A stretch of 64,000 nucleotides of DNA from Blasia pusilla. Taxonomy: Eukaryota. How positions within the stretch are numbered: position 1 is the first letter of the stretch; each line of letters begins with the position of its first letter. This document shows positions 5,501 through 61,631 of this stretch, piece by piece. A program made the position numbers and the translations under genes. The notes beneath the pieces were generated by a model. The model searched no databases. It saw only the letters and a program-made list of their open reading frames with translations, and had not been told where the DNA came from. Where the stretch lies: the NCBI GenBank assembly GCA_050084515.1, contig CM114271.1, forward strand, positions 45,012,001 through 45,076,000, in the 5' to 3' direction.

Positions 5501-5958
5501 CGCGCAGCGTGAGTGATAATCTTCTCCTCTTTTCCCTTTCTACTGCGGCCAATGTTTTGATTTCTGAGTAGATGGTATCCTTTTGCAATTACCTCAGAGT
5601 GTGAGCATAGGAAAGGACTTCTCGTACTGAATTCGCTCTCGATTTCGCAGAGTACCGAACAAATACATTCGCGAAGTACGACTATGGATTTTTTGGAAAT
5701 TTGATAAACTATCACTCTATCTTCCCTCCCCAGTACGATCTTTCAGCCATTCCTTCGATGCCCATGCTCATCATTCATGGAGGCACCGATGGGCTATCAG
5801 ACTTAGCAGACGTGCAACTCTTCATTAGAAGCATCAAATTCTCTCCGGAGGTTCTTTTCTTACCTACCTACGGGCACTTGGATTTCGTGGTAGGCACAAG
5901 AGCCAACATAGACGTCTATAGCAGAGTTCTGACTTTTCTTGCTCAGCCTGGCCTTTAG
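2542..5958 (+). CDS. Triacylglycerol lipase, acid/lysosomal lipase family (LIP1/MPL1-like), about 397 aa, 9 exons
   Basis: Exons 2542-2706, 2957-3061, 3463-3603, 3982-4092, 4322-4465, 4810-4850, 5034-5116, 5413-5508, 5651-5958. All are GT-AG and in frame (1194 nt). Hydrophobic signal peptide, [39 protein letters not shown], nucleophile motif GFSQG, DGLSD and YGHLDF are present, so the triad looks intact. Confidence 0.93.
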
Positions 5959-7369
5959 AAAGTGTTTCACTCATCCCTATACACAGAACTCAATACGTAT
6001 ACAACGAGCAGTGCCCGTTCCGACTCGTTCTCGACTCTGGTGGAATTGGTGAACAGCGCCGAAGTTCTGCAGCACTTTGGGGCCCGAAACTTCGTAGTGC
6101 AAACCTGTCTGTGTCCTCTCTTTTGAATCACGCCGTCGATCGTTTTAAGAACATGCAAATCGTCTAGAGTTTTAGAACATGTAAATCGTCCGGTCGAATC
6201 AATACACAAGACCGGGGGATAACGGAAGACTCCCCTCGACCCCCGTCTGAGAGGAGGATCGATCCGACGAGTCTCGCTCGAGTTATAATATTACTCCACG
6301 TTCTTTTTTCTTGTATCTGTGACGTGACCTGCAATTTCCACGCAGACATACCAGTTTTTGAGCAGTTAGTGGCAGTATCGTTTGCTTCAAAACTCATACT
6401 TTCTTGTTGGAGCTTCTTTGAATGGTCGTAACTGAGGGCTATTCGTATGCTGTCAAGAGCTGCGGAGGTTTGTAGTAGGACCGCCCTAAGCCTGAACCCT
6501 AGGGAGCAGGCATGCACCTATAAAATACGGTTGTTGCTTTGGGTGGTAATGGCTAGTCCCATTCGTTCGCCCTTTGTCACTCATGAAAACAGCGAGTCCA
6601 GGAGTTGTTTGAGATCTAGAAAGGAGTCCAAGATGGTGGATGACGAGTCTGAGCTCTTGGGTCCGTGGGTTGCACCTTGCCGCCTTATTTTGGATGCTTG
6701 TTTTGATTTTTCCTGAGAGAAATTGAACAATTGTCTATCAACATTCCAAAAGAGGATGAGAAGTGGCGGTCGAACATTGCTTAGTAAAAGACCGGTTGTA
6801 CAAAACGAAAAGTTGTGGAGGTGAGAGAGAAGTGGAGAATAGGAAAATAGGAAAATAAATAGGTAGAAAGAGGTGAATATTTAAACATCTTTCAAAAGTT
6901 CATCCATCCATGTGGCCCTGAATTGAATGTGTTCCTTCAAAATTGGCCACCACCATGGTAATTTCCCATGTCATATTGAAACCTACATGAATGAGGGAAT
7001 TTCCTATGCAGGGATATTTTCTTTGTCTTCATGAGAGTCATTTTTAGGAGTGTTACTAAACACAAGAACATAATTTTTATACAAATGGATACATTCTCAC
7101 CGCCAAGAGAAGAACATGGTAGTTGGACACTTTTGCCAATGACATCGAAGGCATTGGCATATTGGGCACTTTTGCTAGTAGGAATACATAAAGGGCGTCC
7201 AAGGGATCTAGAAATCGAGGATAAGGAGGAAAGATAAGATAATTCTTTGACTTATCAAAGTTAAAATCTAGATGAAATAGTAGCAAAATTAGTTATAAGA
7301 CTAATGTTAGGCAAGATGCACATGTATCTTGATAATAGCCTAGAGCGAGAAAAAGAATAGTTATTTATG

Positions 7370-14239: not shown

Positions 14240-14589
14240 CAAGGTTGCACACGGAAAAAAGTCCCTGCTCGTGGACATGTCCATGCAAGCGCGTGTAACC
14301 TACGTCCTGCATCGGAGCCTCCCCCGCCAATAACATACACCCGCGCACGGCCAGCTTGCACCAAATCTAAGCACTCGTCGCTCATTTTGTAGCCCGCCCT
14401 AAGCCTGCATTGGCCCACGCAGGGTAGACTTCTGCGGGCTACATGCAAGCCAATTCTAGCCCATCTCCCTTATATCTGAGCCCGCTCCCGCATCTTCAGC
14501 CCACACAGGCCACTGGGGTACCGAAAAAACCTAGACGGAGGACCAATTGGGCATGGCCGAACGGACATGTCGGTTTTTGTGCAACCATA
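14240..14589. mobile_element. Non-autonomous hAT MITE
   Basis: TIR CAAGGTTGCACA ... TGTGCAACCATA. Perfect 8-bp TSD GTTACAAG at 14232-14239 and 14590-14597. Confidence 0.88.
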
Positions 14590-32003: not shown

Positions 32004-33990
32004 TCAATCTTCAATATTCCTCTTCAAGCTCATATCGATATCTCTAACATCTAAAACACTTATAAATATCTCAAACTTATCTTTAGACAATATCTTTGTA
32101 AAGATATCATCAATTTGCTGATCTATACCTATATACACAAGATCAATTTCTTCTCCAAATATTTTCTCTCTTATTAAATGATAGTGTACCTCAACATGTT
32201 TTGTTTGAGCATGAAACACAGGGTTATTAGCAAGCATGATACTACTAATATTATTTGCATATATAACACTAGGTTCTAATTACTAATATCAATCTCAACA
32301 AGTAATCAATGAACCCATATCATCTCACATGCTGTATTGGTTGCTCCTCTATACTTAGCCTCTGTTGAAGATGAAATAATTGTAGGTTTCTTCTTTGAAG
32401 CCCAACTTATAGGTACGCTTCCCAAGGTAAATGAATAATCAGATGTGGAGTATCTATTAGATACGCATCTTCCCCAATAAGCATCTATGAATCCTTATAA
32501 TTATAAACTCGGAGAAGGTTCAAATTGAATCACGAATTAAACAGAGAATTTCATATATCGCATAATCCTCCTCGCAACATCAAGGTTAGGTTTGCGAGGT
32601 GCTTGTATAAATTGGCTCACTAGGCCAACTGCATAGCTCAAATCTGGCCTGATTATAGTTAGAGTGATCAAACTTTCAACCATTCTCTTCTACATATTAG
32701 AATATGCAATCAATTCTCCTTCATCAACTCTTAGCTTCACACTTTGGTCCAACGATGTAAAGATTGGCATACAAGCTATCATACCATATTTTGAAAGCAT
32801 GTGAAGACCATATTGTTGTTGTAATAACTACATGCTCTCTCCAACCTTCATGAACTCAACACCAAGGAAGTGCTTGAGTTCTCACATGTCCTTCACATCA
32901 AATTCTGCCTGTAACTTTGGCTTGCCTTGTTGTACCATATCCTCTATATCATAGCAATCAAGAGGTCATCAACATACAACACATCGATAATCGTATGATC
33001 TTATCCTCTTAAGAGATATGACAAGGAGTCAGAATAACATATCCTAAAGCCCAACTCTTGTAGGACGAATGTAATCTTGCCATACTAAGCTCTTACAGCT
33101 CGTTTGAGCCCGTATGTAGCTTTCTTTAATCTCCATATGCGGAATGGAAACTCTGGATGCTCATATCCATGTGGTTGAGTCATATATATCTCCTTATATA
33201 GATTTCTATTCAAGAAGGCATTTTTTATGTCCATGTGATATAATCTCCACTTCTTATATACTGCAACTGCAACCATTATTCTCGTATTCGCCATCTTTGC
33301 AACAAGGCTAAATTACTCCTCATAATCGATGCCATATTGTTGTGCATAGCCCTCGGCTACCAATCCAATTACCAATCTAGCTTCATATTTGTTCATTGTA
33401 CCATCTTGATTGCACTTGACTTTGTAAGTCCATTTGCCACGAATAACTTCCTAACGGAAAGGTATATCAACAAGATCCCAAGTCTGTTGATGTTTTAATG
33501 CAACAAGCTCTTTCTCTAGAGCTTGACCTTGCTTGCAACTCTTTCAAAATAACTCAGCTCTTGTTCTTGAAGGGTAGTTGTCATATGTGTATGATGTGTC
33601 GTAAGGAATTCTTCATTTATGAATCTATAAACATGATGTGTGATTCTACTTGATCTACGAAGTTGTTGTTTAGAGGTGGATGCCTCTGACATCTGACTCG
33701 AGCTTTGACTAGTGTCAACAAACTGAATACGCACTCTTTCCAACCATGAATTGACAGATTTAACTTAAGAATCTAGAACCTCTCCTAATCCTTCACTGGT
33801 GCTTGGGGACTTAAAAGGCAATGTCAGTTGGTTTATAGTCATATTTCCCCCTCAATAGACAAGTTTAGGGATGGAATAGGTTAAGATGGAGCATATCATG
33901 ACTTAAGCTCATCAAAGACAACATTGCGACTAATAATAAGCTTCAAAGAGGATGGAATATAGCACTTATATCCCTTAGTTCCATCAGCAT
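32004..33990 (-). mobile_element. Ty1/Copia pol remnant (post-integrase linker, RT, RNase H, PPT)
   Basis: KGYKCY; KWTYKVK; LVAEGYAQQYGIDYEE; HMDIKNAFLN..EIYMTQPHGY; VYVDDL; NPVFHAQTKHVEVHYHLIRE; DIFTK; PPT-like TTGAAGAGGAATATTG. Many stops. Confidence 0.9.
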
Positions 33991-34004
33991 GGTCAATGAA
34001 AATA

Positions 34005-36575
34005 GATCGGCGAAGAAGGATATGTATGGCAATTGGAAGGATAGGCGAATGTGTGGAGATTACCGTCCTATCAACCGACAGACGAGGTCAGATCGGTATG
34101 CCATGCCTATTCCTGAGGAGATCTTTGATGCGGTAGGGCATGCAAAGATCTTCAATACTTTAGATCTCCGTGCTCGCTATCATCAGCTTCCTATGAGGTT
34201 GAAGGACAGGGAGAAGACAACATTCTGGGGGATAGATCGGTTCGGGAGAGATTGCTTGTATCAATGGTGGTTCTTACCATTTGGATTGAAGAACGCGCCT
34301 GCAGAGTTTCAGAGAGTGATTGATAAGATTTTGGTTGGCTTGGATTTTGTACGATGTCACATAGATGATATTCTTATCTTCAGTTCCACGCTTGAGGAGC
34401 ATGAGCGACACCTGGAGGAGGTATTTCGGCGATTGCAGTTACATGGACTGAAGTTATATCTAGGAAAGTGCAGATTCTTTCAGGAGCAGATTGAGTATTT
34501 GGGACACACCATATACCCAAGTAGGTTAGGCGTTCAGCAGACGAAGGTAGAGGCTATTGCACAGATTCCACGGTATGTCAAGGTTTTTAGTGCGATCGCA
34601 AAGTCTTTGACCTTGTTGACGAGACTTGATCATGTTTGGTTGTGGGGAGATGATCAGGAGCGAGCATTTCAGGAGTTCAAGGATAGGTTGATGTCCTTAC
34701 CCATTTTACAGAGACCGGTTAGGGGTCGCCCATTCCAGTTACATATGGATTGGAGCATGTTGGGTCTAGGAGCAATGCTTACCTAGAGGGATGACGAGGA
34801 GAGGGAGTTCGTTGTGGCTTACGCAAGCCGATTGAACAACATTGCAGAGGCAAAATACAGTTCCTACAAGCAAGAAAGCTTGGCTACAGTCTGGGCCGTG
34901 GCACATTTCAGGTGCTATTTATTTGGCGACCCTTTCATACTTATCACTGATCATCAGCCGTTGAGGTGGTTGATGGAGTCTGAAAAGCTTACGGGAAAGC
35001 TTGCTAGGTGGGCTCTATTACTACAGGAGTATGAGTTTGAGGTGGTTCATAGGCCAGGTTGGCTGAACCAGGATGCGGATGGGTTGAGTTGTAACCCATG
35101 TCCGAGTCAAAGAGACGACAGAGGAGCTCGATGGCACGAAGAGAGTGATGAGGAGATGGTGCCCGGTTGGCATGCATCTGCCTATCTTTGTTGGTTGACT
35201 ATGGCAAGTCAGCCACAGCTGATGACTTCAATGGTGGGGTTGGATGATGAGTCTTTGGATCTGGAGGTCAGTGAGGAGGCGACAGGTGGTCGTGATATCC
35301 ATGACGACGTGGAGGTTGTGGAGTTCTTGCGCACTGGGGTACAGCAGTTTGTGGCCAGATGTATGGTATGTGACAAAGTGCGAGCATCCTTCAATGCTCA
35401 CACTCTGCAGTTGCATCCTTTTCCGATTATGGGTTTAGGTTATCGGTGGAGTCTAGACTTTGCGGGACCTTTGCCATTGACGAGGCGTCATCATAGGTAC
35501 GTGTTGGTCATGGTGGAGCATTTCTCCAAGTGGATAGAGTTGGTGGCACTACCGGACAAGGCGAGCGAAGGAATAACTTATGCGTTTCTAGATCGTGTGC
35601 TTAGTCACTTTGGTGCACCGGCGGAGGTGTTGACTGACTAGGGTACCGAGTTCAGGGGAGAGTTTCAGGCCTTGTGTGATCAGGCGCTGATAGATCACCG
35701 CACCACGTCCAGAGATCATCCTTAGGCGGATGGGTTGGCGGAGAGAGTGGTACAGACGGTGAAGAGAGGATTGCGAAAGTATAGCTTGTAGCGGGGACAG
35801 TTGAGGGAGTGGGACCTACAGTTGCCATGGTTGGCTATGGGTTATTGCTTTAGTGTGCAAGCATCCTTGGTGTCATTTTCACCGTACTTTTTGCTCTTTG
35901 GGAGAGAGCCAAATTTACCTGCAGTGATTCGACGTGACATGGCAGAGATGTTAGATCTTGATGATCCAGATGTGTGGGTACAAGCATGTTCTCAGAGGGC
36001 GGAGGTTTGTTGTAGAGTTATGCCTATGACCTTTGAGAACTTAGCTATTGCTCAGCATAGAGATACATTGAGGTATGTGACCATTCGTGGAGGAGGTTAT
36101 CGCCCGGGATTAGGAGGTTTCATCCTGAAGATTACGTGTATTTACAAAGAAGCGGCACCCACGACGCTAGATGTCCTTTGCGCAGGCGCACGATCCTACG
36201 TGTGCGCGAGGTATTACCGACCGGAGTCCTCATGTTGGAGGAACGGGATGGTATGGTTTGGAAGGATCATGTGCACAATTGTGCACCATGTAATCTTTGG
36301 AACGTAGATGGGACAGTGGATCCGAGCTTGGCAGTGGTACCTGCAGGCTTGAGGTGTATGTTGTGCGGATCTGCGAGGGATGCAACCATCATGTTGGTAT
36401 GTGATGGTTGTTCTCGAGGGTGGCATATGTCATGTCTGACCTTCCCTCTTGATGTGGTTCCCACCGGATGATGGATGTGTCCGAGATGTGTATAGGGTAG
36501 TAGGTCATGTCAGAGAGATGTGATATTTTCTATTTGGAGTTGGGGGGATCCAACTGCGAGCTAGGGGGGCGGTTG
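34005..36575 (+). mobile_element. Ty3/Gypsy pol remnant: RT - RNase H - integrase - PHD finger - PPT
   Basis: RMCGDYRPIN, LDLRARYHQ, PFGLKNAPAEFQR, HIDD (YxDD decayed), AYASR, TDHQPLRWL, LARWALLLQEY, WSLDFAGP, VEHFSKW, VLTD*G.EF, AERVVQTVKR, then C4HC3 CMLC..CDGC..HMSC..*WMCPRC and PPT AGGGGGGCGGT. Confidence 0.92.
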
Positions 36576-36659
36576 TGTAATCTCCATGTATATGTATGAG
36601 TTGATTTTTTTACATGTGTGGATCAACCCGTGTGTGGGGAAGATCGGTGTTGTATGGTG

Positions 36660-37140
36660 TTGCGGTCTTGGATTGGACCGGCGGTGTTGTTGGCTTGCGT
36701 GCACATCATCCACGCTTGTGGTGGACAAACTTGTTGCCTAGGGAGGTTCTCGTCGAGCATATGATCTGATCTGCAGCGGGATCCTTGCCTTACAATGGAT
36801 AGTATCTTGGATACTGGGAAACTTTCTCAGGTGGTGAGGGTTATTGATCGGTCACCCAAGGCAGGGGTGAACCGTGTGGGCCAGCCTAGGATGACACTAT
36901 CCACATTTTTGAGTTTTCCCTCGTCACATGCCTATAGGGAAGGTGGTCCCGGGCTTGTATGGGATTCTCATGTGCGACAGTTGGTGGAGCCTAATGCTGA
37001 TGAGAGAGAGCGTGCGATGGGATTTGCTACTGGTGTGATAGCGATTGCTTCCATTTCTGAGGCTTCACGACGTCATGTGTTGGGTCAGGCCATGGACCTG
37101 AATTGTTTGACTTGGATTTTGAGTCTTGGTATGGCCGAGC
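36660..37140 (+). pseudogene. C-terminal half of a DNMT3-like C5 cytosine methyltransferase inside Gypsy pol
   Basis: RAHHPRLWWTNLLP (motif VIII; DNMT3 AAHRARYFWGNLP), LTMDSILDTGK (LELQECLEHGR), ERERAMGFATG (motif IX, EMERVFGFP), ISEASRRHVLGQAMD (motif X, MSRLARQRLLGRSWS). Motif order and spacing are right. Confidence 0.75.
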
Positions 37141-38690
37141 AGCGTCGACTTCGGACTATGTCTGTGGGTCTTCCACCCCTTGTAATGAGCTCGATGGCTA
37201 CCATGACAGTAGAGGCATCGGTTGGGGGCGAGGAGAGTAGTATTTTGCATCCTTGGAGTAAATGGGATGTAATGGCTGGGCATGTGGAGTTGGTTGCTCA
37301 TGCTGGTGGAGGAGTTATTTGCTCAGATGATGGTGTAGCTAAGGGTGTACCATCTTGTGAGGGGATTATGAGACCAATGGCATCGTCCTCTCCCTCTAGT
37401 GTGCTAGTGGAGGAGACTTGGGAGCCATTACTTGGGCCCAAGCTTACGGGAGGTGAGAAACGACGCTTGACACAGTTCCTACATGCTTATAGGAGTTGTT
37501 TTGCCTTTAGCATGAAGGAGTTGGGTGCTCAGTTGAACCGGTATATGGATTGATTTGGCTAGTGATACGCCAATCTTCCGTCATCCCTACCGATATAGTG
37601 ATATGGAGAGGGACCTGATTCAAAGTAGGACGTTGGACCTTTTGGAGGCTAGATTAGTGGAGTTTTCGCATGGAGAGTATGCATCAGCCACTGTCATGCC
37701 TCCTAGAAAGGATATGCATGGCAACTACACGGATAGGCGAATGTGTGGAGATTACCGTCTTATCATTCGGCAAACCAAGGCCGATAGGTATGCCATGCCT
37801 TCACCTGAGGAGATCTTTGATGTGGTGGGACAGGCAAAGATTTTCAGTACTTTGGATCTTCGGGCAGGATACCATCAATTGCCGATTCAAGAGAGTGACA
37901 AGGCCAAGACAAAGATTTTGGGGTGTCAACTCTCATGGCAAGGATTGTTTGTACCAGTGGAAATTCTTATCCTTTGGGTTGAAGAATGCACCTGCCGAGT
38001 TTCAGAGAGTGATGGACAGAGGCTTCACATACCTCCGATAGTATGTTCGCCAATCCCTTCATAGTACATACCTCCGATTAGTGCTATGGCAAAGCCTTTG
38101 AACCAATTGCTGAAATCAGATCAAGAGTGGCACTGGGAAGATGATCAGGAGAGAGCTTTTGTGGAGCTCAAGGCCCAATTGGTGGCGGCGCCTATGTTGA
38201 GGGGAGACCTATGAGAGGGCGCCCATTTCAGATTACACTGATTAGAGTAGGTTGGGACTTGGAGCGGTGTTGACACAACATGATGATGAGCACATGGAGT
38301 TTGTGGTGGCATATGCAAGTCGTTTGAATTAAAATGAGTCGCTATAATTCATATGAGGGAGAGTGCTTGGCAAGAGTGTGGGTTGTGGCACACTTTAGGT
38401 GTTACTTTTGGCATACAATTTACCCTTGTTATTGATCACCAGCCGCTCAAGTGGTTGATGGAGTCTGACAAGCTTACAGGGAAGCTTGCACGGTGGGCTC
38501 TTATCTTACAGGAGTATGACTTCCAGGTGGTACATAGACTTGGAGTTGCCAACCTTGATGCTGATGGGTTGAGTAGGAACCCATGTACTAGTGAAGAGGA
38601 TGCAATTGGGGCTAGATGGCATGGCGAGGTTGATGAGGAGATGGTGCCAGGTTGGCATGCATCCGCCTTTTTATGTTGGTTAGGGGTGGA
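36660..38690 (+). mobile_element. Second Gypsy copy: DNMT-like domain - linker - RT - RNase H (decayed, with internal deletions)
   Basis: ORF 36795-37553 runs from the DNMT motifs into the pre-RT region (LTGGEKRRLTQFLHAYRSCFAF). It is followed by PIFRHPYRYS, RRMCGDYR, LDLRAGYHQ, FGLKNAPAEFQR, DHQPLKWL and LARWALILQEY. Confidence 0.88.
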
Positions 38691-39322
38691 TATATGTTGT
38701 GTAGCGATATGTATGTGCACGACACGGTCTAGAACTCCGTACTCAATCACTCCATATGTGGCAATGATCAGTTGCCACATGCGGTTGGACGCCTCTCTTA
38801 GACTTTTAACTAATCTCCACTGAAACTCCTATAAACTCTTCAGCTTGTTGGTTCCCACAACCTGGTAGCTCCAACCATGGATGGGAGTTGGAATGGTTCC
38901 TCATTCTAATTAAACCCCTCAATACATCACTCCACTTCGTGTCACTCCACTACCACTGCTCGCACTATCCCGTTCTTTTGAACCCTGGAAGAATGCCGTG
39001 ATGAAAACCTTGTCTCACACGCTCGAGCACTGAGACTCACCAAGAATCTCCCACACTCCTCACTAGTTCACTAATGCTAATGCTAATATTGTTATGACAC
39101 ACCCGGCCTCACGCACACTTAACACTTGGGCTTACCGTGAGCCTCTCCAAGAAGCTCACCTAAGCTATTGACACTCTCTCGGGTCAAACACGTGACCACT
39201 ACTCAGGAAATCTCCATGTTTCCACAAACATGCTATACATGCAAGGATTCTACACTTGTCACCATCACTACACTTGGCTAACCTAAGCTCTACTCGATAC
39301 CCAACACCCTCAATGACACTAG

Positions 39323-42231: not shown

Positions 42232-45200
42232 CTAAAGGGGAGGCACCGGACAACCGCAAGATGCATGTTCGGGCATGTTCCTCAAAGGACTATGGACTAA
42301 CGCTTCCGAGGAACAAGAGGAGTGATCAGCTGATTTGCACCATGGCTTGTTGCAGTTGCCAGTCGCAAAAGTTTTGCCTTGAGGTTTGGCGAGGTGTGAA
42401 TCTCCAGAGAATGCAATTACTACATCCGAGGGAGAACTTCCGCTCCCTTGATGTTGAGAGCTACTCGTTGCAGAGCAGGATGCTGGATTTCTCCGTACTA
42501 ATCGCGATGAACTCCCAGAACTGCCCATCTCGCAGCAAGTCATCGACGAAGCACTCTGCGCAGAGCCGCACAAATGACCGATTGATGGCTCGAGAGTGCT
42601 CTTGAAGCCATGGTTCATATCCTGGGTACTGTGTTCTTGTTCATGATCAGATCTGTTGGCTTCTCCTGTACATTTCTTGCTCGAGCAGCACTTTTGCTCA
42701 GAGTTGGTCCCAGGGCAACTTTCATCGGCGTTTGGAGAATTTCCTACACTGATGAGGCGGTTGCACTTGGTAGTATCTGGAATGATTCCTGAAGTACATT
42801 TCTTGCTGACCTCTAGTGAAACTGAGCAACACTTCGTCTCTGGGCCTGCTTTTGAGCTGGGTGCCGGACAACACTTTTTGCCTGATATGCCCAAGTCTAA
42901 ACCAGATTTTGAGCTGCAAGTAGGTCCCGAACGACATTTCATCTCGGGAACTTTTGAATCTGGGGAACGCTCGGTCTCAAAACGAGGTTTGGATCCCGAA
43001 CAACACTTTTTTTCAGTAACCTTGGAATCCGAGCAAAGTCTGCTCTCCACATCACTCGTTGAGAGGCAGGTGGTTGTTTTGCAACACTTTTTCTCAGGAT
43101 TCCTAGGATCTGAGTGCTGCATCGTCTCTAAACTGGGTCTTAGGCAGCATTGAGTGCTCAGTCCCAGTTCTGATCCGGCGACCATTTTTCGGGTGACTTT
43201 AAACGAGCTTCCAATATCTTGGTTTGCTACTGTGCAACACTGTTTGCCTCGACATGACTCTGATCGTTCGTACTTTTCCCTCAAATCATGGCCATAGCTA
43301 TTCTGTCGAAGCGGCCAGCAGGTAACCCTCACTCTGTGATGATCGTGGTCTTCTCCATCATGCTTGTGGTCACTACTGCCATATTTTCCTGTCTCTTGGT
43401 CATTCTGACCGAGTTCGTGTTGATGAGTTTGCTGGCAATGATTATGACTATGACTGTGATGCGCATGTTGTTGGTGTTTCTTCGATTCGAATTTAGGCAA
43501 AACAACACCCACTTTCCTGTTGAGCAGACGCATACTGTTGAATATCACCACCAAGCACGTTCCAACGTCGGCCAGCACTGCCGCCCAAAGGGATGGGTAT
43601 CCTGCTGCAGCAATAATGATGATGGCGATTTTCGTGAAGAAGGAGAAGGACACATTTTGTATTATCTTTCTTCTGCAATCCCTTCCCAATTCGATTGCCA
43701 CAACCAGCTTCCGCAGATCGTTTGTCATTAGGGCTATGTCCGCTGTTTCCATAGCAACTGCGGACCCTGCAACGCCCATTGCAAGTCCAATATCGGCTAC
43801 GGCCAAAGCTGGTGCATCGTTGATGCCATCTCCCACCATTGCTGTAACTCCGGTCGGCTTGAGATCCTTTACGAGATTAACCTTATCTTCGGGTAGGAGC
43901 TCAGCATGAACTTCTATGTCACCAAGCTGGAAACATATCACCAGAATGCCCGGTTAGGACTGAAAATACCATGCTACGACAGATTTTGCAACCTAAGGTT
44001 ATTTGGTGAACGTGAGTAACTTGGTTATAAAGGAGGACTAGGCGCCCATACCTTGTTATGGACAGCTGTAGCCGCAAGTTCACTGTCACCCGTGAGCATG
44101 ACAACACGCACCCCCATATTCTATCAACAACAAATAGAACAATCAGAAATTTCTTTGAAGGAATGCGAAATCTTGCGCAGGACAAGGAGGCTTCATAATC
44201 ACTGAACCTTAACAAATCCATGTGGACTTGACTTCGCTCTTCTAATCACACATTATAGGGACCGTCAACTTACCTTAAGACTTGACACTGCCTCGGCTGC
44301 TTCAGGTCGAACTGAATCAGCTACTGCAAAAATGCCTATCGGTCGCCCGTCGACAGCAACCCAGCCAACGGTGGCGCCCTGACCACTCCACTGGTCCGAG
44401 ATTCCAACGTTTATATCTACGATCCGAGAAGATACTGTGGTAAGTTTTCTAAATTGTGGGAGATCATCTCATCTGTTTGTAAGTTCCAATACCCACTGGT
44501 AAGTAGATATATACACTAGCCTCGACATCTGTTTACAAGTTACAGACACATTTGCCGGACCAGAGAACCCATGGATATGACAAATTACCACACTGAGTCC
44601 TTGTCTGTTCGTGAACGATGCTTTATCAAACGAGAGAGCAAACTTTCAGCAATTCCACATCCTTTTTCTACTCGAGACAGAATGGCGTACCTTGAACACC
44701 TTTCAGGCGTGCAGCCAAACGAGCATTTCCTATCTCCACCTTTTGATCATCAACTACTGCAGATACTCCCTCTCCTGGTATGATCTCAAAATCTGTGGTA
44801 TCGCCGTATGGTTCCACCCCATGAAGGCGTGCATATGAAACAAGTGCTGGTGCTAATGGGTGGCTAGATTTGTTTTCGACACACGCAATCCTGGAGACGT
44901 CACACATCAAAAGAGTCTTAGACAGTGATGTGTTTGATGTACACGTACACATTTGCTTCTCCCCTTAACCAGCGTCACTTTGGAAAGGTAGGAAACCAGG
45001 AACAGGGCATCATGGTTGGAGATGGAGTCATCCATAATCCAATCATGTTCCGTTCAGGAGAAAATTCACTGACCTGGAAAAGCTGATAGTTAAATTTAAG
45101 TGGTAGATTACCGCATTATGCCCGACTTTCGTCACTTCTGGTCTCCGGCATCGTTAGACAAGTATAACTTTTCTTTAGTATGATATGTTTCATTCTCGAA

Positions 45201-54132: not shown

Positions 54133-54580
54133 GTTGATCAACCCCCATTGAGTGTGATGAATCGAGTGGATTTGCCGAGGGCACCATTTCTCACGCTCGT
54201 GATTTTTTTGCCTCATATGCTTATAGGGAGAGTGGCCCAAGCTTGATTTGGGATGATCTGACAAAGTAGTTAGTAGCACCCAATGCTAATGAGTAAGAGT
54301 ATGCGATGGGATTTTCCACATAAGTGATGACAGTACCGTCATTGATAGAGTTGCCTTAACACAACGTGCTTTTCCAAGCTATAGATATGAAGTGTGTCAC
54401 ATGGATTATAAGTCTATGATTGGGTAAACAACATCAAATGTGATTGAGGCATATCACCTCAAAATCCTTAGAAAACCCTAGTCGTACTAAGATAGTACAA
54501 GCCTTGGTGGGGAGCGAGGCAGGAGAAAACCCAAAGGTCCGAGTCGATTGCCAGAGATATCCTTGGAGATCCTGGGATAC
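54133..54580 (+). mobile_element. Decayed DNMT-like domain + linker of the Gypsy family (a second DNMT-bearing copy)
   Basis: Reads (with indels) MNRVDLPRAPFLTLV..SYAYRESGPSLIWD..LVAPNANE*EYAMGFST..VLFQAIDMKCVTWIISL, then ALVGSE..YPWRSWD. It is colinear with 36845-37270. Confidence 0.75.
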
Positions 54581-55224: not shown

Positions 55225-57915
55225 TTCTCCCTAGCTAGTGGTTAGGTCCCTCTAGCTCAAGATAGCCTATAAAATAAGTCTACATGCCATGCATCTTCTA
55301 GGCGCTAAGATCAGGAGGTGTGGTGTTATGTGGCCTCATCATTAGTCACCTTCTTGCAATCCATAACATCAATACTCCTATCCTCGTTCAAAAGATGACA
55401 TGGTACACAATTATGCATATGATCTTTCCAAACAATACCATCATGATCCTCTAAAATAAGGACTCTTGAAGGTAAAATCTCTCGTACTCATAAAATAGTG
55501 CATCCCAGCATCACATCCAATGTCATCAACGCCATATAATGTAGGTAGACATAATTTCTAAGATGGAATCATCATATCCTTGGTCAATAGCCTCCTCCAC
55601 GCTTGATCACGTAGCTTAGAGTATTAAAATTTTGAGCGATAATTAGATTCTAAAACACCATAGCCATGACTTTCTGGAAGAGGTCAGCCCGTTGAAAACA
55701 CGCTTGCATCCATACGTCTGGATCATCAAGGTCAAGTACCTCAAACACATCTTGTCAAGTAGCTGATGGTAAATCTAATTCTTCCCCATAGAGCAAGAAA
55801 TATGATGAAAATAATGCCTAGGATGCATACCGACTAAAGCGATAATCCATTCCTAACCACGATAATTGTAGGTCCCAATCTACTAAGTATCCTCTTTGCA
55901 GCCCATGCTTGTACATTCACAATCCTCTCTTCATTGTTTGCATAACTCTCTTTGCCAAACCATCTCCCTCTAAATGATCTTGAGAAGAAGTACAATGATG
56001 TATTAGCGTCTGATCATAAAAGGCCTAAAATTCACCCCTAAACTTAGTACCTTGGTTTGTCAACACCTCCCCTAGTGTGCCCAAATGACCAAGCACTATA
56101 TCAAGAAATGCATAAGCCACTCCCTCACTTGTCCGGAAAAACTACCAACTCAATCCACTTGGAGAAGTGCTCCACCATGACCAAAGCATACCGACTATGG
56201 CGTCCTATCAATGGTAAAGGCGTTGCAAAGTCTAACTCCAATGATACCCTAATCCCATGATAAATAAAGGATGGAAGTGTGGTGTCGGAGCATTGAATGA
56301 TGTCTGCATCCTATCACATACAATGCATCTGGCTACAAATTTTTGAACATGAATTTGCATACCATGCCATCAATATTGAATCTGAAGCAAGCTATATATA
56401 CATTAGACTACAAAATGACCAGAATCCTTGAGAACATGCCTCACGATTCGTGATTGCTATGAAGGATCCGACACCATCCGCACTCATCCATCCTCCTAAA
56501 CTTGAAGCACATACGTTCTCTTCCACCTAAACCTCTTGACTCACTATGGAACTCAATCCCACTCTCTAGCACCCACCATGCTTGCTAAGAAACCATTGTG
56601 TAGGTACTCCAAGACCATCTCATTATCATGGATGTCTAGGAGTCCTTGTCAATTCCTCACTAGCATCCGGATCTGAGGACTCACCATCCAACCTCCCTCT
56701 TCGAGTGGATGCCTCATGCTAACATCACATAGCCAACCAAAAAAGAGAAAATACATGCCAACCGGACACCATCTCCTCATCACTCTCACCATGCCACCAC
56801 GATCCAATTGCTCTAGCTCGTACATGGGTTATGGCTCAACCCGTATCCATCTCGGTTCAGATATCTTGGACAATGGAATACTTGAAAAATCATCCTGCTA
56901 AAACAAGATTATCTATCTAGTAAGCTTACCTATACGCTTTTCAAGCTCCATCAACCATCTGAGTGGTTGATGATGAGTGATGAGCATGAAAGGGTTCCCG
57001 AACCAAAAACATCTGCAGTGGGCCACTGCCCACATTGTAGCTAAGCACTCCTTCTTATAGGAATTTTACTTTGCCTTCACAATGTTGTTTGAGTGGCTCG
57101 TATATGCCACTACAAACTCCTTCCCTCATCATCTCACTAAATAAGCACAACTCTGAACCCCAACATACTCTAGTCTATATATAACTAAAATAGACGACCA
57201 AGCATATGTCTCCTAATAATGGGCGAGGACGTCAACCTTTCCTTGAGCTCTTGAAATGATTTAATACTCATTCTTGATCATCTCCCTAAAACCATTGCTA
57301 GTCAAGCCTAACTAGCAAAGTCAATGCCTTTGCAATTGCACTAAAACCTTCCACATACAGTCACTAGTAGTTCATTAATCCCATAAAAGCTTGAAATCGA
57401 CTCACATATGTAGGGATGGAATCCATGCTATGGCCTCCATCTTTGTTTGCTGAACTCCAATCCACTGTAGATATTGGTATGTTAAAGGTACTCAATCTGG
57501 TCATGAAAGAACCTATATTTGTCTAGACGTAACTTCAACCCATGTAACCGCAATTGTTGAAACACCTCCTCCAAATGTCTCTCATGCTCCTAAACCATGG
57601 CATAAAACACAATAATTTCATTGATGTTATATCTCAAGAAATCTAGACTAGCCAAAATCCTATCCATAACTCGTTGAAACTCTGCATGGGTGTTCCTCAA
57701 CCCAAATGGTAAGAACCGCCACTGATACAAACAATCCTTTTTAAAAAGATCTATCCCCCCAAAAATTTCTTCTCCTTGTCATCAACGTGAATGGGAAACT
57801 GATGATAGCCAACATGTACGTCCAGAAAATGAAAGATCTTTACATGCCCCACTGCATCAAAGATCTACTCGGGAATAGACATAGCATAACGATCGGCATT
57901 CATATGCTGGTGGAC
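55225..57915 (-). mobile_element. Gypsy pol remnant (RT - RNase H - integrase) of the same family, on the minus strand
   Basis: The reverse complement gives ADRYAMSIPE*IFDAVGH, FLPFGLRNTHAEFQR, MLITHHQPLRWL, HHCC-type ..GHF..CIVCDR, RYALVMVEHFSKW and VWKDHMHNC, then a PPT-like AGCTAGGGAG. Many stops. Confidence 0.85.
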
Positions 57916-59939: not shown

Positions 59940-61212
59940 CGTGAACCAAGTTGTTGAAGTGGGCTTATGATGGAGTTCAAAGACCATCGCTACATACATT
60001 GGAGGTGATCTTGGATCGAGGGCGACGATCTCAGACTGTTACTTGTGATGATATACCATTGTTGGTAGTGGCCAATTGGTCAGGCTACTAGAGGGCAATA
60101 TGCGTTGCCTACATTGGTGAGTTTTTCCGTCAGCTCATGCTTTTCGTCAAGGAGAACAAGGCATACTATGGGATGAGCGGGAAAATATATTGGTAGAGCC
60201 CAATGCCGAGGAGCGAGAGCAAGTTTTGGGATTCTCTACAAATATAATCGTAGAGGCATCACATAAATAGGTGTTGGGTTAGGCTTTGGACATAAATTAT
60301 CGTACTTGGGTGATTAATCTTGGTTTGGCTAAGCAAGGATAAATGCAAGAAGTATTTGTGACATTATGTCCATTTTGTAGCTCAATATCTATCGAAATGG
60401 GTGAGACAAGAGTAGGGGGCATGATGGTGATGGAGAGGCATCCATGGACTTTATGGGACATGTTACAAGAGCAAAGAGAGATGGGAGTTCATTTTTTTGA
60501 TGCGAGACATAGCGGAGTGCCTAGAGAGTTGGTGCTTGAGTTGGGAGAGTATGTTGTTACTACTCTAGAGGTTACTAGTTAGCTACCACCACTCTTCTAT
60601 GCTATATATAGAGATCATCAATGAGACTTAGAGCCCGATCCCATGGACATGCTTTGAGGTCACGAAGACCCTCATTTTTGCGTCCAAAACAAATCATTTA
60701 CGAGTGGATAATGTAACAAAATTCCGAGTCCCTAATAACTACTTCTAGTCATTACTAGGTCAAGGTTGCTCAACATTGGGCCATTTTTATACCCAAAATT
60801 TTTGAGCGTAGAAAAATTGGCGACCCCCCTATGGTCTCCAACTTGGTGCGCATGGGATTTGGCCCATAATTGGGAGTTACTGATTCGTCCTAGATTGACA
60901 AGAGCCGAGAGGAGACAAGTGTTGCAATTCTTGTAGAGATGAGGGACTATTTTGCATAGAGAATCCATGATTTGGATACGTTGAAGGATCCAAGTATTTG
61001 GATCGAGTCGGATAGTGATATATCCATCTTTCAAAAACCCTACAAGTATTTTGGCATGGAGTGAGCCTTGATTTAGAGCAAGAGTCAATATTTGGTTGAT
61101 GTCAAATTGGTGGAGAGATTGTTTGGAGAGTATGCATCCACCATAATTATGCTAACAAAGAAGGACATGCATGGCCATTCGACCGATAGGCAAATGTGTG
61201 GGGATTACCGTC
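59940..61212 (+). mobile_element. Decayed DNMT-like domain - linker - RT N-terminus (a third DNMT-bearing copy), with an insertion at about 60580-60860
   Basis: AYDGVQRPSLHTLEVILDRGRRSQ..LPTLVSF..AHAFRQGEQGILWDE..LVEPNAEEREQVLGFST..VLG*ALD..TWVINLG; linker RVGG..HPWTLWD; WELLIRPRLTRAERRQ..IFQKPYKY..GEYAS..KKDMHGHSTDRQMCGDYRP. Confidence 0.8.
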
Positions 61213-61631
61213 CGAGGCGCAGTAAGAGGAGAGGAAGAGAGGAAAGAGGAGAGAGGAAACTTCCTTCAACCCAAAGAGATACTTTTTTTTTAAGAGAGTT
61301 TCCTCTAAGTTGAAGAGAGATTTTGTTGGGTTGAAGAGAGGAGGTTTCTTATGTGAACTTATTTTTCAATTTTGTTTTGTGTGCTTAGTCACTTCCTCAA
61401 ATTGGTTTCTCCTCTTTCCCATTTTGATAACCCGTCTGAATCCAACGAGTTGCAACTTGCACTGAAGTAGACAAACTAAAAAAATCATTGGAACAAAACT
61501 TGTCAAACTAATGCTTTTTTCCATCCAAGGTCTGAAAAAGATTTATCATTTTTCCTCAGGTGATTAGAGTTCAAGCTTATAGTGAACATTCTGGCACTGC
61601 AAAGTACACTCTAACACCTCATGTTGCATCC

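What the first reader, a model, noticed from the sequence alone, without database searches (positions are those of the whole stretch)
36660..38690. Ty3/Gypsy retrotransposon carrying a DNMT3-like cytosine methyltransferase domain fused upstream of RT
Seen: between 36698 and 37140 the pol region encodes RAHHPRLWWTNLLP ... LTMDSILDTGK ... EPNADERERAMGFATG ... ISEASRRHVLGQAMD, and ORF 36795-37553 runs on through a linker into the region just before RT. Known: these match C5-DNMT motifs VIII, IX and X in DNMT3-type order and spacing (DNMT3A AAHRARYFWGNLP / LELQECLEHGR / EMERVFGFP / MSRLARQRLLGRSWS). Retrotransposon-borne DNMTs have been reported in dinoflagellates and the charophyte Klebsormidium (de Mendoza et al. 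2018, Nat Commun), but they are not part of standard land-plant Gypsy architecture. Inference: this family encodes its own methyltransferase in the polyprotein, possibly to methylate its cDNA or insertion site. Caveat: motifs I, IV (PC) and VI (ENV) are missing because the copy is 5'-truncated.
Basis: partly seen in the sequence, partly recalled or inferred. Interest (0 to 1): 0.92.

Follow-up and report, generated by a model that had tools for sequence, protein, structure and literature searches.

The report
Dead fragment of DNMT3-carrying Gypsy retrotransposon
This stretch is a broken 2-kb piece of a plant jumping gene whose family carries its own DNA-methylating enzyme, a rare kind first described in a green alga and here seen in moss- and liverwort-type genomes.

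Summary
Window 36698-37148 encodes the C-terminal half (motifs VIII, IX, X) of a DNMT3-type cytosine-5 methyltransferase, directly upstream of a Ty3/Gypsy RT and RNase H.

The peptide alone matches no Pfam family or solved structure. It matches 643 proteins elsewhere. Their full-length forms carry PF00145 with motifs I, IV (PCQ) and VI (ENV). The family profile hits DNMT3A at 6.7e-20, ahead of DRM and bacterial enzymes. A relative's model superposes on DNMT3A/B/C.

Full-length elements in metagenome loci read LTR, GAG-PR-DNMT, in-frame stop, RT-RH-INT-PHD, LTR. A Klebsormidium nitens protein shares the GAG-PR-DNMT order. Named closest relatives are Sphagnum, Marchantia, Calypogeia and Riccia.

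The window copy is dead. It is a 2,028-bp internal block (36661-38688) lying in the 3' UTR of a related element. It lacks motifs I-VI, GAG, PR, INT and LTRs, has frameshifts, and has lost the RT catalytic part.

Verdict: a real new member of a known kind (Gypsy-DNMT3), in a bryophyte-like genome. Its function is unproven.

The parts
36661..38688 (+). Block B: 2,028-bp internal fragment of a Gypsy-DNMT3 element (DNMT C-half, linker, RT N-part, RNase H), inserted in the 3' UTR of element A
   Evidence: blastn to the L001 element: window 36689-38019 and 38078-38690 match element positions 4653-5992 and 6309-6926 at 79-81% identity. It is collinear with P0121 residues 1133-1793. Three DNA reads join 36660 to 38689. 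The flanks are collinear with L001, L051 and L014.
36698..36739 (+). DNMT motif VIII (AHHPRLWW..; the first Arg of the relatives' AHRPR is His here), frame 2
   Evidence: hmmsearch of the family profile: positions 198-221 at 36686-36757. The same profile stretch aligns to DNMT3A's AHRARYFWGNL. Relatives read AHRPR or AHRAR.
36759..37148 (+). DNMT target-recognition region plus motif IX (36987-37025) and motif X (37068-37115), frame 3
   Evidence: Profile positions 222-351, score 187.9 (the profile includes this sequence). Independent hits: 72% identity to P0231, which carries PF00145. Profile positions 304-345 align to DNMT3A 246-287.
37149..37536 (+). Linker between DNMT and RT. In relatives it holds an in-frame stop that ends ORF1; here there is no stop
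   Evidence: Three-frame comparison of the window with L001, L051 and L014.
37537..38019 (+). RT N-terminal part (frameshifted twice). The catalytic YxDD part is missing after 38019
   Evidence: Pfam RVT_1, weak, profile 18-94 only. tblastn P0121 1359-1512. Element positions 5992-6309 are absent. 220-318 DNA reads run on with unlike sequence after 38019 and 38043.
38078..38688 (+). RT C-end and RNase H, with stops and frameshifts. The block ends just after GWHAS..CWL
   Evidence: Pfam RT_RNaseH 2.4e-08. tblastn P0121 1622-1793. 336 DNA reads run on with unlike sequence after 38690.
34007..36492 (+). Element A: a related but distinct copy (about 77% nucleotide identity to B), RT-RH-INT-PHD, 5'-truncated, with no DNMT between RH and INT
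   Evidence: Pfam RVT_1 3.2e-26, RT_RNaseH 9.7e-25, rve, PHD 2.8e-07. Direct repeats shared with B at 74-82% identity. tblastn. blastn to L001.
36493..36660 (+). Element A 3' UTR, upstream part, with a purine-rich PPT-like tract at 36563-36572
   Evidence: Local alignment of window 36535-36595 to L001 14208-14268: score 34 against a shuffle maximum of 31. The signal is weak on its own.
38689..38724 (+). Element A 3' UTR, downstream part, resuming after block B. A's LTR presumably follows (inferred)
   Evidence: Local alignment to L001 14325-14360: score 42 against a shuffle maximum of 27. The L001 3' LTR starts at 14363. Repeat-level DNA depth lasts to about 38867.
54207..54437 (+). Copy D: a second degenerate DNMT C-terminal piece (motifs IX-X)
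   Evidence: hmmsearch profile positions 275-351, 1.6e-20. tblastn 40% identity with internal stops.
59945..60336 (+). Copy C: a third degenerate DNMT C-terminal piece, followed by linker (60805-60933) and RT start (61106-61213)
   Evidence: hmmsearch profile positions 216-266 and 274-349. tblastn. blastn to L001.

Best explanation
Window 36661-38688 is a dead internal fragment of a Ty3/Gypsy LTR retrotransposon lineage that carries a DNMT3-type cytosine-5 DNA methyltransferase in its polyprotein.

Intact relatives are about 9 kb long. They read: LTR; ORF1 = GAG (CCHC knuckles), aspartic protease, DNMT3 domain; an in-frame stop in the closest (moss-type) relatives; then RT, RNase H, integrase with a C-terminal PHD finger; LTR.

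The window fragment keeps only the second half of the DNMT domain (motif VIII, target-recognition region, motifs IX and X). It also keeps the linker, the first part of RT and RNase H. The AdoMet-binding motif I, the catalytic PCQ cysteine and ENV are absent, so it cannot methylate anything. It lies in the same orientation in the 3' UTR of a second, related element (A), just upstream of where A's LTR should start.

Inferred, not shown:
- The block arrived by a double template switch between co-packaged RNAs during reverse transcription, or by break repair.
- In live elements the DNMT is made with Gag and PR, released by the protease, and methylates the element's cDNA or new insertion. This is the idea of de Mendoza et al. 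2018 for related elements.
For: Homology:
- 643 hits at E<=1e-3.
- Homologs carry PF00145 immediately N-terminal of the matched stretch. In P0025 DNMT is at 264-352 and the match at 399-516. In P0121 the order is CCHC 530, PR 796-888, DNMT 978-1226, RT 1421, RH, INT.
- Motifs I, IV and VI are visible in the relatives' sequences.

DNMT class:
- The family profile hits DNMT3A at 6.7e-20, DNMT3C/3B at e-17, DRM at e-10 to e-11, M.HhaI at e-8 and DNMT2 at e-6.
- The AlphaFold model of P0267 (pLDDT 66, pTM 0.71) has DNMT3A, 3B and 3C as all its top Foldseek matches (E 2e-15, TM on target 0.72-0.78, about 325 columns).

Element anatomy:
- L001, L051 and L049 show an LTR pair (307-344 bp, 91-94% identical) around GAG-PR-DNMT-RT-RH-INT-PHD.
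- The in-frame stop is seen in L001, L051 and L014.
- The window block is collinear with that order.

Inserted-block status: (joint 36660->38689 in 3 reads).

Selection: dN/dS of the DNMT C-half, window against 66 of the 80 loci, has a median of 0.30.

Distribution:
- Named relatives are Sphagnum (3 species), Marchantia, Calypogeia and Riccia.
- Algal relatives are Closterium, Monoraphidium and Scenedesmus.
- K. nitens GAQ93235.1 has the CCHC-PR-DNMT order and is 40% identical to the window piece, E 4e-21.

Activity of the family in the source organism: DNA depth reaches about 290 in 37058-37238 against about 0.2-1.6 in unique bins. Strand-biased RNA reads of 10-26x carry the other copies' letters.
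Against: - The window peptide alone has no Pfam or PDB sequence hit.
- No copy in this window holds motifs I-VI.
- No whole genome is held, so I could not show an intact copy in this organism.
- Only 3 reads support the empty-site joint. The upstream flank alignment barely beats shuffles (34 against 31).
- The structure model is of medium confidence (pLDDT 66), and the target-recognition part at residues 269-299 is below 50.
- RNA reads come from other copies and were laid at >=97% with many partial fits (142 of 217 in X20), so they show family transcripts, not function.
- No methylation activity has been shown for any member of the bryophyte clade. I found no such report in six literature searches.
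- That P0140 is the published KnitGypsy-Dnmt3 is presumed, not checked. Supplements were closed.
Confidence: 0.9

Rival explanations
1. A and B together form one rearranged, non-autonomous chimeric element that spreads as a unit. Under this reading the DNMT C-half is kept as part of a propagating variant rather than being a one-off insertion.
For: Same orientation and related families. DNA depth of 12 in 36515-36695 shows that the flank itself is repeated. The block's ends are clean.
Against: Three reads show the flank without the block. Most reads reaching 38690 (336) and 38019/38043 (220-318) run on into different sequence, so the abundant copies are the canonical long form. Element A is itself 5'-truncated by a Copia fragment.
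Confidence: 0.07
2. A remnant of a host DNMT3 or DRM gene that came to lie next to a Gypsy RT by chance or by local gene capture in this genome only.
For: The DNMT piece has no GAG, PR or LTR beside it in the window, and plants do have host DNMT3 and DRM genes (established knowledge).
Against: The same DNMT-linker-RT junction recurs in window copy C. It also recurs in Marchantia P0356 (DNMT 460-529, RT 833-919), in Riccia P0289 and in loci L001, L014, L047, L049 and L051. DRM ranks far below DNMT3A, and the motif order is not rearranged. 36 to 37 of the 122 long DNMT-bearing proteins fetched show PR-DNMT or DNMT-RT order.
Confidence: 0.02
3. The ORF 36795-37553 still makes a catalytically dead, DNMT3L-like accessory protein that modulates host or TE methyltransferases.
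For: An open frame of 252 codons from ATG 36795 covers motifs IX-X and the linker. Sense-strand RNA reads overlap 37058-37600. Catalytically dead DNMT3 paralogues act as cofactors in mammals (titles of the DNMT3A-DNMT3L structures; established knowledge).
Against: The RNA reads carry the variant letters of other copies, for example 37044 A>G in 16 of 16 X20 reads. RNA depth is 0 in 36696-36876, where the ORF starts. The MTase fold cannot form from the C-half alone, because motif X packs against motif I (established knowledge of the class I MTase fold). The frame is flanked by frameshifts.
Confidence: 0.02
4. Chance resemblance of short motifs to DNMT motifs VIII-X.
For: No direct Pfam or PDB sequence hit for the window peptide.
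Against: E-values of 5e-48 to 2e-83 to proteins that hold PF00145 in register. Family profile to DNMT3A at 6.7e-20.
Confidence: 0.005

Closest known systems
KnitGypsy-Dnmt3 of Klebsormidium nitens (de Mendoza et al. 2018, Nat Commun 9:1341, PMC5890265; I read passages and the Discussion)
   Same: A DNMT3-type, non-rearranged MTase domain inside the polyprotein of a Gypsy LTR retrotransposon, under purifying selection. A K. nitens protein (P0140, GAQ93235.1) has the same CCHC-PR-DNMT order. It is 40% identical to the window piece. It falls on the same side of the DNMT tree as the bryophyte copies (long branch, so its placement is unsure).
   Different: The host is a bryophyte-type land plant rather than a charophyte alga. 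The paper describes a DIRS-like repeat arrangement for K. nitens, whereas L001, L051 and L049 show a plain LTR pair. The closest relatives have an in-frame stop between DNMT and RT and a PHD finger after integrase. The passages I read mention neither feature ('PHD' occurs 0 times). That P0140 belongs to the published family is presumed.
Chlorophyte-type Gypsy-DNMT elements (for example 'pol' of Scenedesmus sp. PABB004 KAF8056149.1, Monoraphidium neglectum MNEG_11595)
   Same: A homologous DNMT domain with the same idiosyncratic motifs (AHRxRxxWTN, EPNxxERE), a Gypsy RT-RH-INT backbone, and a PHD finger after integrase.
   Different: The domain order is RT-RH-DNMT-INT-PHD, not PR-DNMT-RT. The two orders fall on opposite sides of a branch with support 99: 53 rows (39 a, 13 unclassed, 1 b) against 78 rows (76 b, 2 unclassed) (FastTree, midpoint root, no outgroup).
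Mammalian DNMT3A, DNMT3B and DNMT3C catalytic domains
   Same: Best sequence-profile and fold matches, with the same motif order I-X.
   Different: About 20-23% identity. There is no PWWP or ADD domain. The stretch between motif VIII and IX is longer and was modelled with low confidence. It is embedded in a retrotransposon polyprotein.
SymbioDIRS-Dnmt3 and SymbioLINE-Dnmt of dinoflagellates (same 2018 paper), and EpiLTRs with DAM plus DNMT (bioRxiv 10.64898/2026.05.21.726589; passages read)
   Same: Retrotransposons that captured a cytosine methyltransferase.
   Different: The backbones differ (DIRS, LINE, chromovirus). The EpiLTR DNMT is sister to DNMT4, not DNMT3, according to that preprint.

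Membership tests
C5 cytosine DNA methyltransferase, DNMT3 type (PF00145) | Significant sequence-profile match | tested here: met
   The window peptide alone shows no match. Through the family, the profile A2 hits DNMT3A at 6.7e-20. Relatives score PF00145 at 1e-8 to 1e-15. The window peptide matches those relatives at up to 2.2e-83.
C5 cytosine DNA methyltransferase, DNMT3 type (PF00145) | Motif I (FxGxG, AdoMet binding) in this copy | tested here: not met
   No window match to profile positions 1-197 with --max at E<=10. The block starts at 36661. Relatives have LFGGI (24 of 25).
C5 cytosine DNA methyltransferase, DNMT3 type (PF00145) | Motif IV (PCQ catalytic cysteine) and motif VI (ENV) in this copy | tested here: not met
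   Absent from the window. The weak DNA similarity upstream of 36661 lies outside the block and belongs to element A's UTR. In relatives GWPCQ is present in 20 of 25 and LENV in 23 of 25.
C5 cytosine DNA methyltransferase, DNMT3 type (PF00145) | Motifs VIII, IX and X in canonical (non-DRM) order | tested here: met
   36698-36739, 36987-37025 and 37068-37115. Aligned to DNMT3A 175-183 and 246-287 through the profile. The first Arg of motif VIII is His in this copy.
C5 cytosine DNA methyltransferase, DNMT3 type (PF00145) | DNMT3 fold | tested here: met
   Tested for the intact relative P0267, not for the window fragment. The top 50 Foldseek matches listed are all DNMT3A, 3B or 3C. The model is of medium confidence.
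C5 cytosine DNA methyltransferase, DNMT3 type (PF00145) | Methyltransferase activity | not testable with these tools
This copy lacks the catalytic half.
Ty3/Gypsy LTR retrotransposon | RT-RNase H-integrase order with flanking LTRs | tested here: inconclusive
   Block B has RT (partial) and RH only, with no INT and no LTR. Element A has RT-RH-INT-PHD. Full relatives L001, L051 and L049 have the order plus an LTR pair. The family is therefore a member, and this copy is a fragment.
Gypsy-DNMT3 (K. nitens type) | DNMT3 domain inside the polyprotein, between protease and RT | tested here: met
   Block B is collinear with P0121 1133-1793. P0403 and P0170 read PR-DNMT-RT-RH-INT-PHD, and K. nitens P0140 reads CCHC-PR-DNMT.
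Gypsy-DNMT3 (K. nitens type) | [quoted passage not shown] | tested here: met
   NG86 dN/dS median 0.30 over 66 window-against-locus pairs for the C-half. The pairs are not independent, and both partners are decayed copies.
Gypsy-DNMT3 (K. nitens type) | DIRS-like arrangement of terminal repeats (legend of Fig. 4c of the 2018 paper) | tested here: not met
   L001, L051 and L049 show one simple direct LTR pair. This could not be examined in the window copy.

The most novel reading that the evidence does not exclude
Bryophytes, and hence land plants, carry a live Gypsy lineage inherited from streptophyte algae, with roughly 100 or more close copies in this organism and sense-strand transcripts. 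The lineage makes a catalytically competent DNMT3 as the C-terminal domain of a Gag-PR-DNMT ORF1, set off from RT by a leaky in-frame stop. It pairs this with a PHD-finger integrase. On this reading a transposon-encoded de novo methyltransferase acts in land-plant nuclei and may shape both the element's own methylation and the host's.
Probability: 0.3. Interest if true: 0.75.

Novelty: new member of a known kind. Interest (0 to 1): 0.5.

Why it matters
Retrotransposons that carry the enzyme normally used to silence them are a rare inversion of the host-parasite relationship. They have been described in print only for dinoflagellates and one charophyte alga.

This finding shows that the same Gypsy-DNMT3 lineage, with the same PR-DNMT-RT order, is widespread in mosses and liverworts. 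Ten of 25 bryophyte-clade proteins examined keep all six motif patterns, among them gene models of the genetic model Marchantia polymorpha. The question of what a transposon-borne DNMT3 does therefore becomes testable in a tractable land plant.

It also flags that some proteins annotated as 'DNA (cytosine-5-)-methyltransferase' in bryophyte proteomes are transposon ORFs. This matters for counts of host DNMT genes.

The particular copy in this window is itself inert.

Tried and rejected
- Whole-genome search of the window's assembly: none is held. Earlier findings: not open.
- Single-sequence Pfam and PDB searches of the window peptides gave nothing relevant.
- I first read the DNA alignment as showing a degenerate ENV position at about 36610-36630. 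I rejected this after searches showed that the sequence upstream of 36661 belongs to element A's 3' UTR.
- I considered a retropepsin reading of 'ILDTGK'. I dropped it because there is no protease Pfam hit, and the stretch aligns to the DNMT target-recognition region of relatives that have their own protease upstream.
- Whole-protein alignment A1 was useless because the domain orders differ. The IQ-TREE-type search did not finish, so FastTree was used.
- The metagenome scan did not return the contigs of the intact ORF1 proteins P0379 and P0396. Most of the 80 loci have no ORF of 400 aa or more (3 of the 36 loci longer than 9 kb do).
- Flank searches found no second copy of A's UTR or LTR in the window, except a 36-nt match at 29272-29237.
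- The organism's name stayed coded. No listed indexed holder is on record as RNA.
- Six literature searches (one search failed on a short term), with passages of five papers read, found no statement that bryophyte or other land-plant Gypsy elements carry DNMT3. Two later papers speak only of 'streptophytes'. Supplements were closed and may list such elements.
Full report
WHAT IS THERE. RAHHPRLWWTNLLP lies at 36698-36739 in frame 2. After a frameshift, a stop-to-stop frame 36765-37553 holds LTMDSILDTGK, EPNADERERAMGF (36987-37025) and RRHVLGQAMDLNCLTW (37068-37115). That frame runs through a linker to the start of a Gypsy-type RT (frame 1 from 37537), followed by RNase H (Pfam RT_RNaseH 2.4e-08). 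Searched alone, these peptides match nothing relevant in Pfam or among PDB sequences.

IS IT A DNMT? phmmer of the 262-aa frame against 1.84 billion cluster representatives found 643 proteins at E<=1e-3, 247 at <=1e-10 and 11 at <=1e-30. The long hits carry Pfam DNA_methylase (PF00145) just N-terminal of the matched stretch. Their sequences show motif I (FGG), motif IV (PCQ or ECQ) and motif VI (ENV, ENT), followed by the same AHRxRxxWTN, EPNAxERE and LLGxAMD stretches as the window.

A profile of 13 family sequences hit DNMT3A at 6.7e-20 and DNMT3C/3B at about e-17. Plant DRM scored e-10 to e-11, M.HhaI e-8 and DNMT2 e-6. HMMER aligned profile positions 304-345 (family motifs IX-X) to DNMT3A residues 246-287, and the AHR.R..W.N stretch to DNMT3A's AHRARYFWGNL.

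An AlphaFold model of the intact relative P0267 (20-row alignment; pLDDT 66, pTM 0.71) gave only DNMT3A, 3B and 3C chains among the listed top Foldseek matches (E 2e-15, TM on target 0.72-0.78). The LTMDSILDTGK-to-DNMT3A pairing falls in the target-recognition region. No tool aligned it residue by residue, and it is modelled at low confidence.

THE ELEMENT. Among 80 metagenome loci that encode relatives, L001, L051 and L049 show a direct LTR pair of 307-344 bp at 91-94% identity. The pair encloses, on one strand, GAG, PR and DNMT (L001 6923-10954), then RT-RH, then INT-PHD (to 14088). The element is about 9 kb.

In L001, L051 and L014 the DNMT-bearing frame ends at an in-frame stop (..ASPKVFA*QPMA..), and RT follows in the same frame. 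Database proteins from Sphagnum jensenii (P0232), Calypogeia fissa (P0237) and an unnamed source (P0235) end at the same point. The last 25 residues of L001's ORF1 equal those of P0232. Other members (P0121, P0403, P0170) read PR-DNMT-RT-RH-INT(-PHD) as one frame.

TWO ARCHITECTURES. Another 36 to 37 show PR-DNMT(-RT-RH-INT-PHD) or truncations, and 10 show DNMT only.

A FastTree of 131 DNMT domains splits them at a branch with support 99. One side has 53 rows (39 PR-DNMT type, 13 unclassed, 1 other). The other has 78 rows (76 RT-RH-DNMT type, 2 unclassed). Named rows on the first side are Closterium, Klebsormidium nitens (long branch), Marchantia and Calypogeia. Named rows on the second are Monoraphidium and Scenedesmus. 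There is no outgroup, the support is SH-like only, and seven rows have deviant composition.

The bryophyte rows form one clade of 20 with support 100. I examined 25 bryophyte-clade proteins: those 20 plus five shorter close relatives. Ten keep all six motif patterns, among them Marchantia Mp_4g09160, MARPO_0008s0049 and MARPO_0020s0163, and a Calypogeia protein. GWPCQ is present in 20 of 25 and LENV in 23 of 25.

THE WINDOW COPY. blastn of the L001 element against the window gives block B as 36689-38019 plus 38078-38690. These correspond to element positions 4653-5992 and 6309-6926 at 79-81% identity. The RT segment that holds the catalytic YxDD is therefore missing. Frame 2 reads FGLKNAPAEFQRVMD and then breaks.

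A profile search of all six frames found no match to DNMT profile positions 1-197 anywhere in the window. Copies at 54207-54437 and 59945-60336 also hold only the C-terminal part. The first Arg of motif VIII is His in block B. The in-frame stop after DNMT is absent here.

Upstream lies element A (34007-36492), which reads RT-RH-INT-PHD. It is about 77% identical to B where they overlap, is truncated at its 5' end next to a minus-strand Copia fragment, and has no DNMT between RH and INT.

B IS AN INSERTED BLOCK. Laying reads of the same coded organism at >=97% gave 3 DNA reads, starting at 3 places, that join 36660 directly to 38689. That skips 2,028 bases whose ends are TG..TG. 336 DNA reads run on into unlike sequence after 38690, and 220-318 do so after 38019 and 38043. 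The abundant copies are therefore longer at those points.

Independently, window 36535-36595 aligns to L001 14208-14268 (score 34, shuffle maximum 31). Window 38689-38724 aligns to L001 14325-14360 (score 42, shuffle maximum 27). L051 and L014 give the same result. In those elements the two pieces are 57 bases apart and lie just before the 3' LTR (L001 14363).

Block B therefore sits in element A's 3' UTR, in the same orientation. My earlier idea that a degenerate ENV lay at about 36620 is withdrawn. A double template switch during reverse transcription of co-packaged RNAs would produce this structure. That mechanism is inference.

STATE OF THE FAMILY IN THIS ORGANISM. DNA depth reaches about 290 in 37058-37238, against 0.2-1.6 in bins such as 33800-33980, 35972-36152, 36696-36876 and 38868-39048 (about 1 in 100 of the run was read). 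This suggests on the order of 100 or more copies that are at least 97% alike over parts of B.

Three RNA runs give 10-26x over 37058-37600, almost all with the first mate on the minus strand. In most stranded libraries that means sense RNA. These reads carry the letters of the other copies (for example 37044 A>G in 16 of 16 X20 reads, and in 89 of 92 and 99 of 104 DNA reads). The family is therefore transcribed, but not demonstrably this copy. Many reads fit only in part (2007 of 2935 DNA reads).

SELECTION. Nei-Gojobori dN/dS between the window's DNMT C-half (126 codons) and 66 of the 80 loci has a median of 0.30. The 40 best pairs range from 0.22 to 0.44. The 66 loci are those with a plus-strand match spanning over 100 residues. 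Both partners have decayed since insertion, which pushes the ratio upward, so the domain was constrained during most of the divergence. The pairs are not independent.

COMPARISON WITH WHAT IS KNOWN. De Mendoza et al. 2018 (PMC5890265; passages and Discussion read) described Dnmt3 inside a Gypsy polyprotein in K. nitens. That domain had conserved catalytic residues and Ka/Ks below 0.2. They proposed cDNA methylation, among other roles, and demonstrated activity only for a dinoflagellate DIRS enzyme.

The K. nitens protein GAQ93235.1 (P0140) reads CCHC-PR-DNMT and is 40% identical to the window piece (E 4e-21). Two later papers refer to 'streptophytes (Gypsy-DNMT3)' without naming land plants in the passages I read.

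Six searches found no explicit report for bryophytes. Supplements were closed. The sequences themselves are public and auto-annotated. Several Marchantia and Sphagnum models are even named 'DNA (cytosine-5-)-methyltransferase'.

VERDICT. The feature is a new member of a known kind: the bryophyte branch of the streptophyte Gypsy-DNMT3 lineage. This copy is an inert internal fragment.

How the enzyme serves live elements is unknown. My working model is that it is made with Gag and PR, is freed by the protease, and methylates the element's cDNA or new insertion. I hold this at about 0.4, and it is inference throughout.

Interest is moderate (0.5). The finding is real, uncommon and little described in land plants, and it makes the question testable in Marchantia. 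But the principle was published in 2018, and the local copy does nothing.

Noticed in passing
L001:10900-11010; L051 and L014 at the same place; window 37330-37400: In the closest full-length relatives an in-frame stop separates GAG-PR-DNMT from RT-RH-INT-PHD, so the DNMT is the C-terminal domain of ORF1 and Pol would need read-through. Three database proteins end at the same residue. The window copy and some algal members have no stop there.
   Followed up: partly
window 36355-36492 (element A); also P0083, P0075, P0101, P0106, P0170, P0403: The integrase carries a C-terminal PHD finger (Pfam 2.8e-07 in the window, interrupted by a TGA at 36469-36471), where chromoviruses have a chromodomain. 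It accompanies the DNMT in both domain orders. These elements therefore combine a histone-tail reader with a DNA methyltransferase.
   Followed up: partly
proteins (no window coordinates): The DNMT sits either between PR and RT (named rows all streptophytes) or between RNase H and integrase (named rows all chlorophytes). The DNMT tree splits the two orders at a branch with support 99. This suggests one capture followed by a move within the polyprotein.
   Followed up: partly
window 38019-38078: 318 DNA reads and 27-46 RNA reads per run show an 'opposite strands' joint between 38023 and 38078. The structure of the other copies at the RT break is therefore not a simple deletion. This is unexplained.
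   Followed up: no
window 54207-54437 and 59945-61213 (+); 55229-57915 (-): Two more degenerate DNMT C-terminal pieces lie here, one followed by linker and RT start. Neither has motifs I-VI. A minus-strand Gypsy RT-RH-INT-PHD fragment lies between them.
   Followed up: partly
window 33085-34087 (-): A Copia-type fragment (Pfam RVT_2 6.7e-18; retroviral SH3-like integrase end 3.7e-10) abuts the truncated 5' end of element A.
   Followed up: no
window 42232-43953 (-): A long open exon with the HAD/P-type ATPase hinge (Pfam Hydrolase 5e-07) is followed by a roughly 450-residue Cys/His/Ser-rich tail. It looks like the 3' end of a heavy-metal-pump-type host gene (the name is recalled, not tested).
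   Followed up: no
proteins P0352, P0286, P0376, P0378: Transposon ORF1 fragments in Marchantia and Sphagnum proteomes are named 'DNA (cytosine-5-)-methyltransferase' by UniRef. This could inflate counts of host DNMT genes in bryophytes.
   Followed up: no
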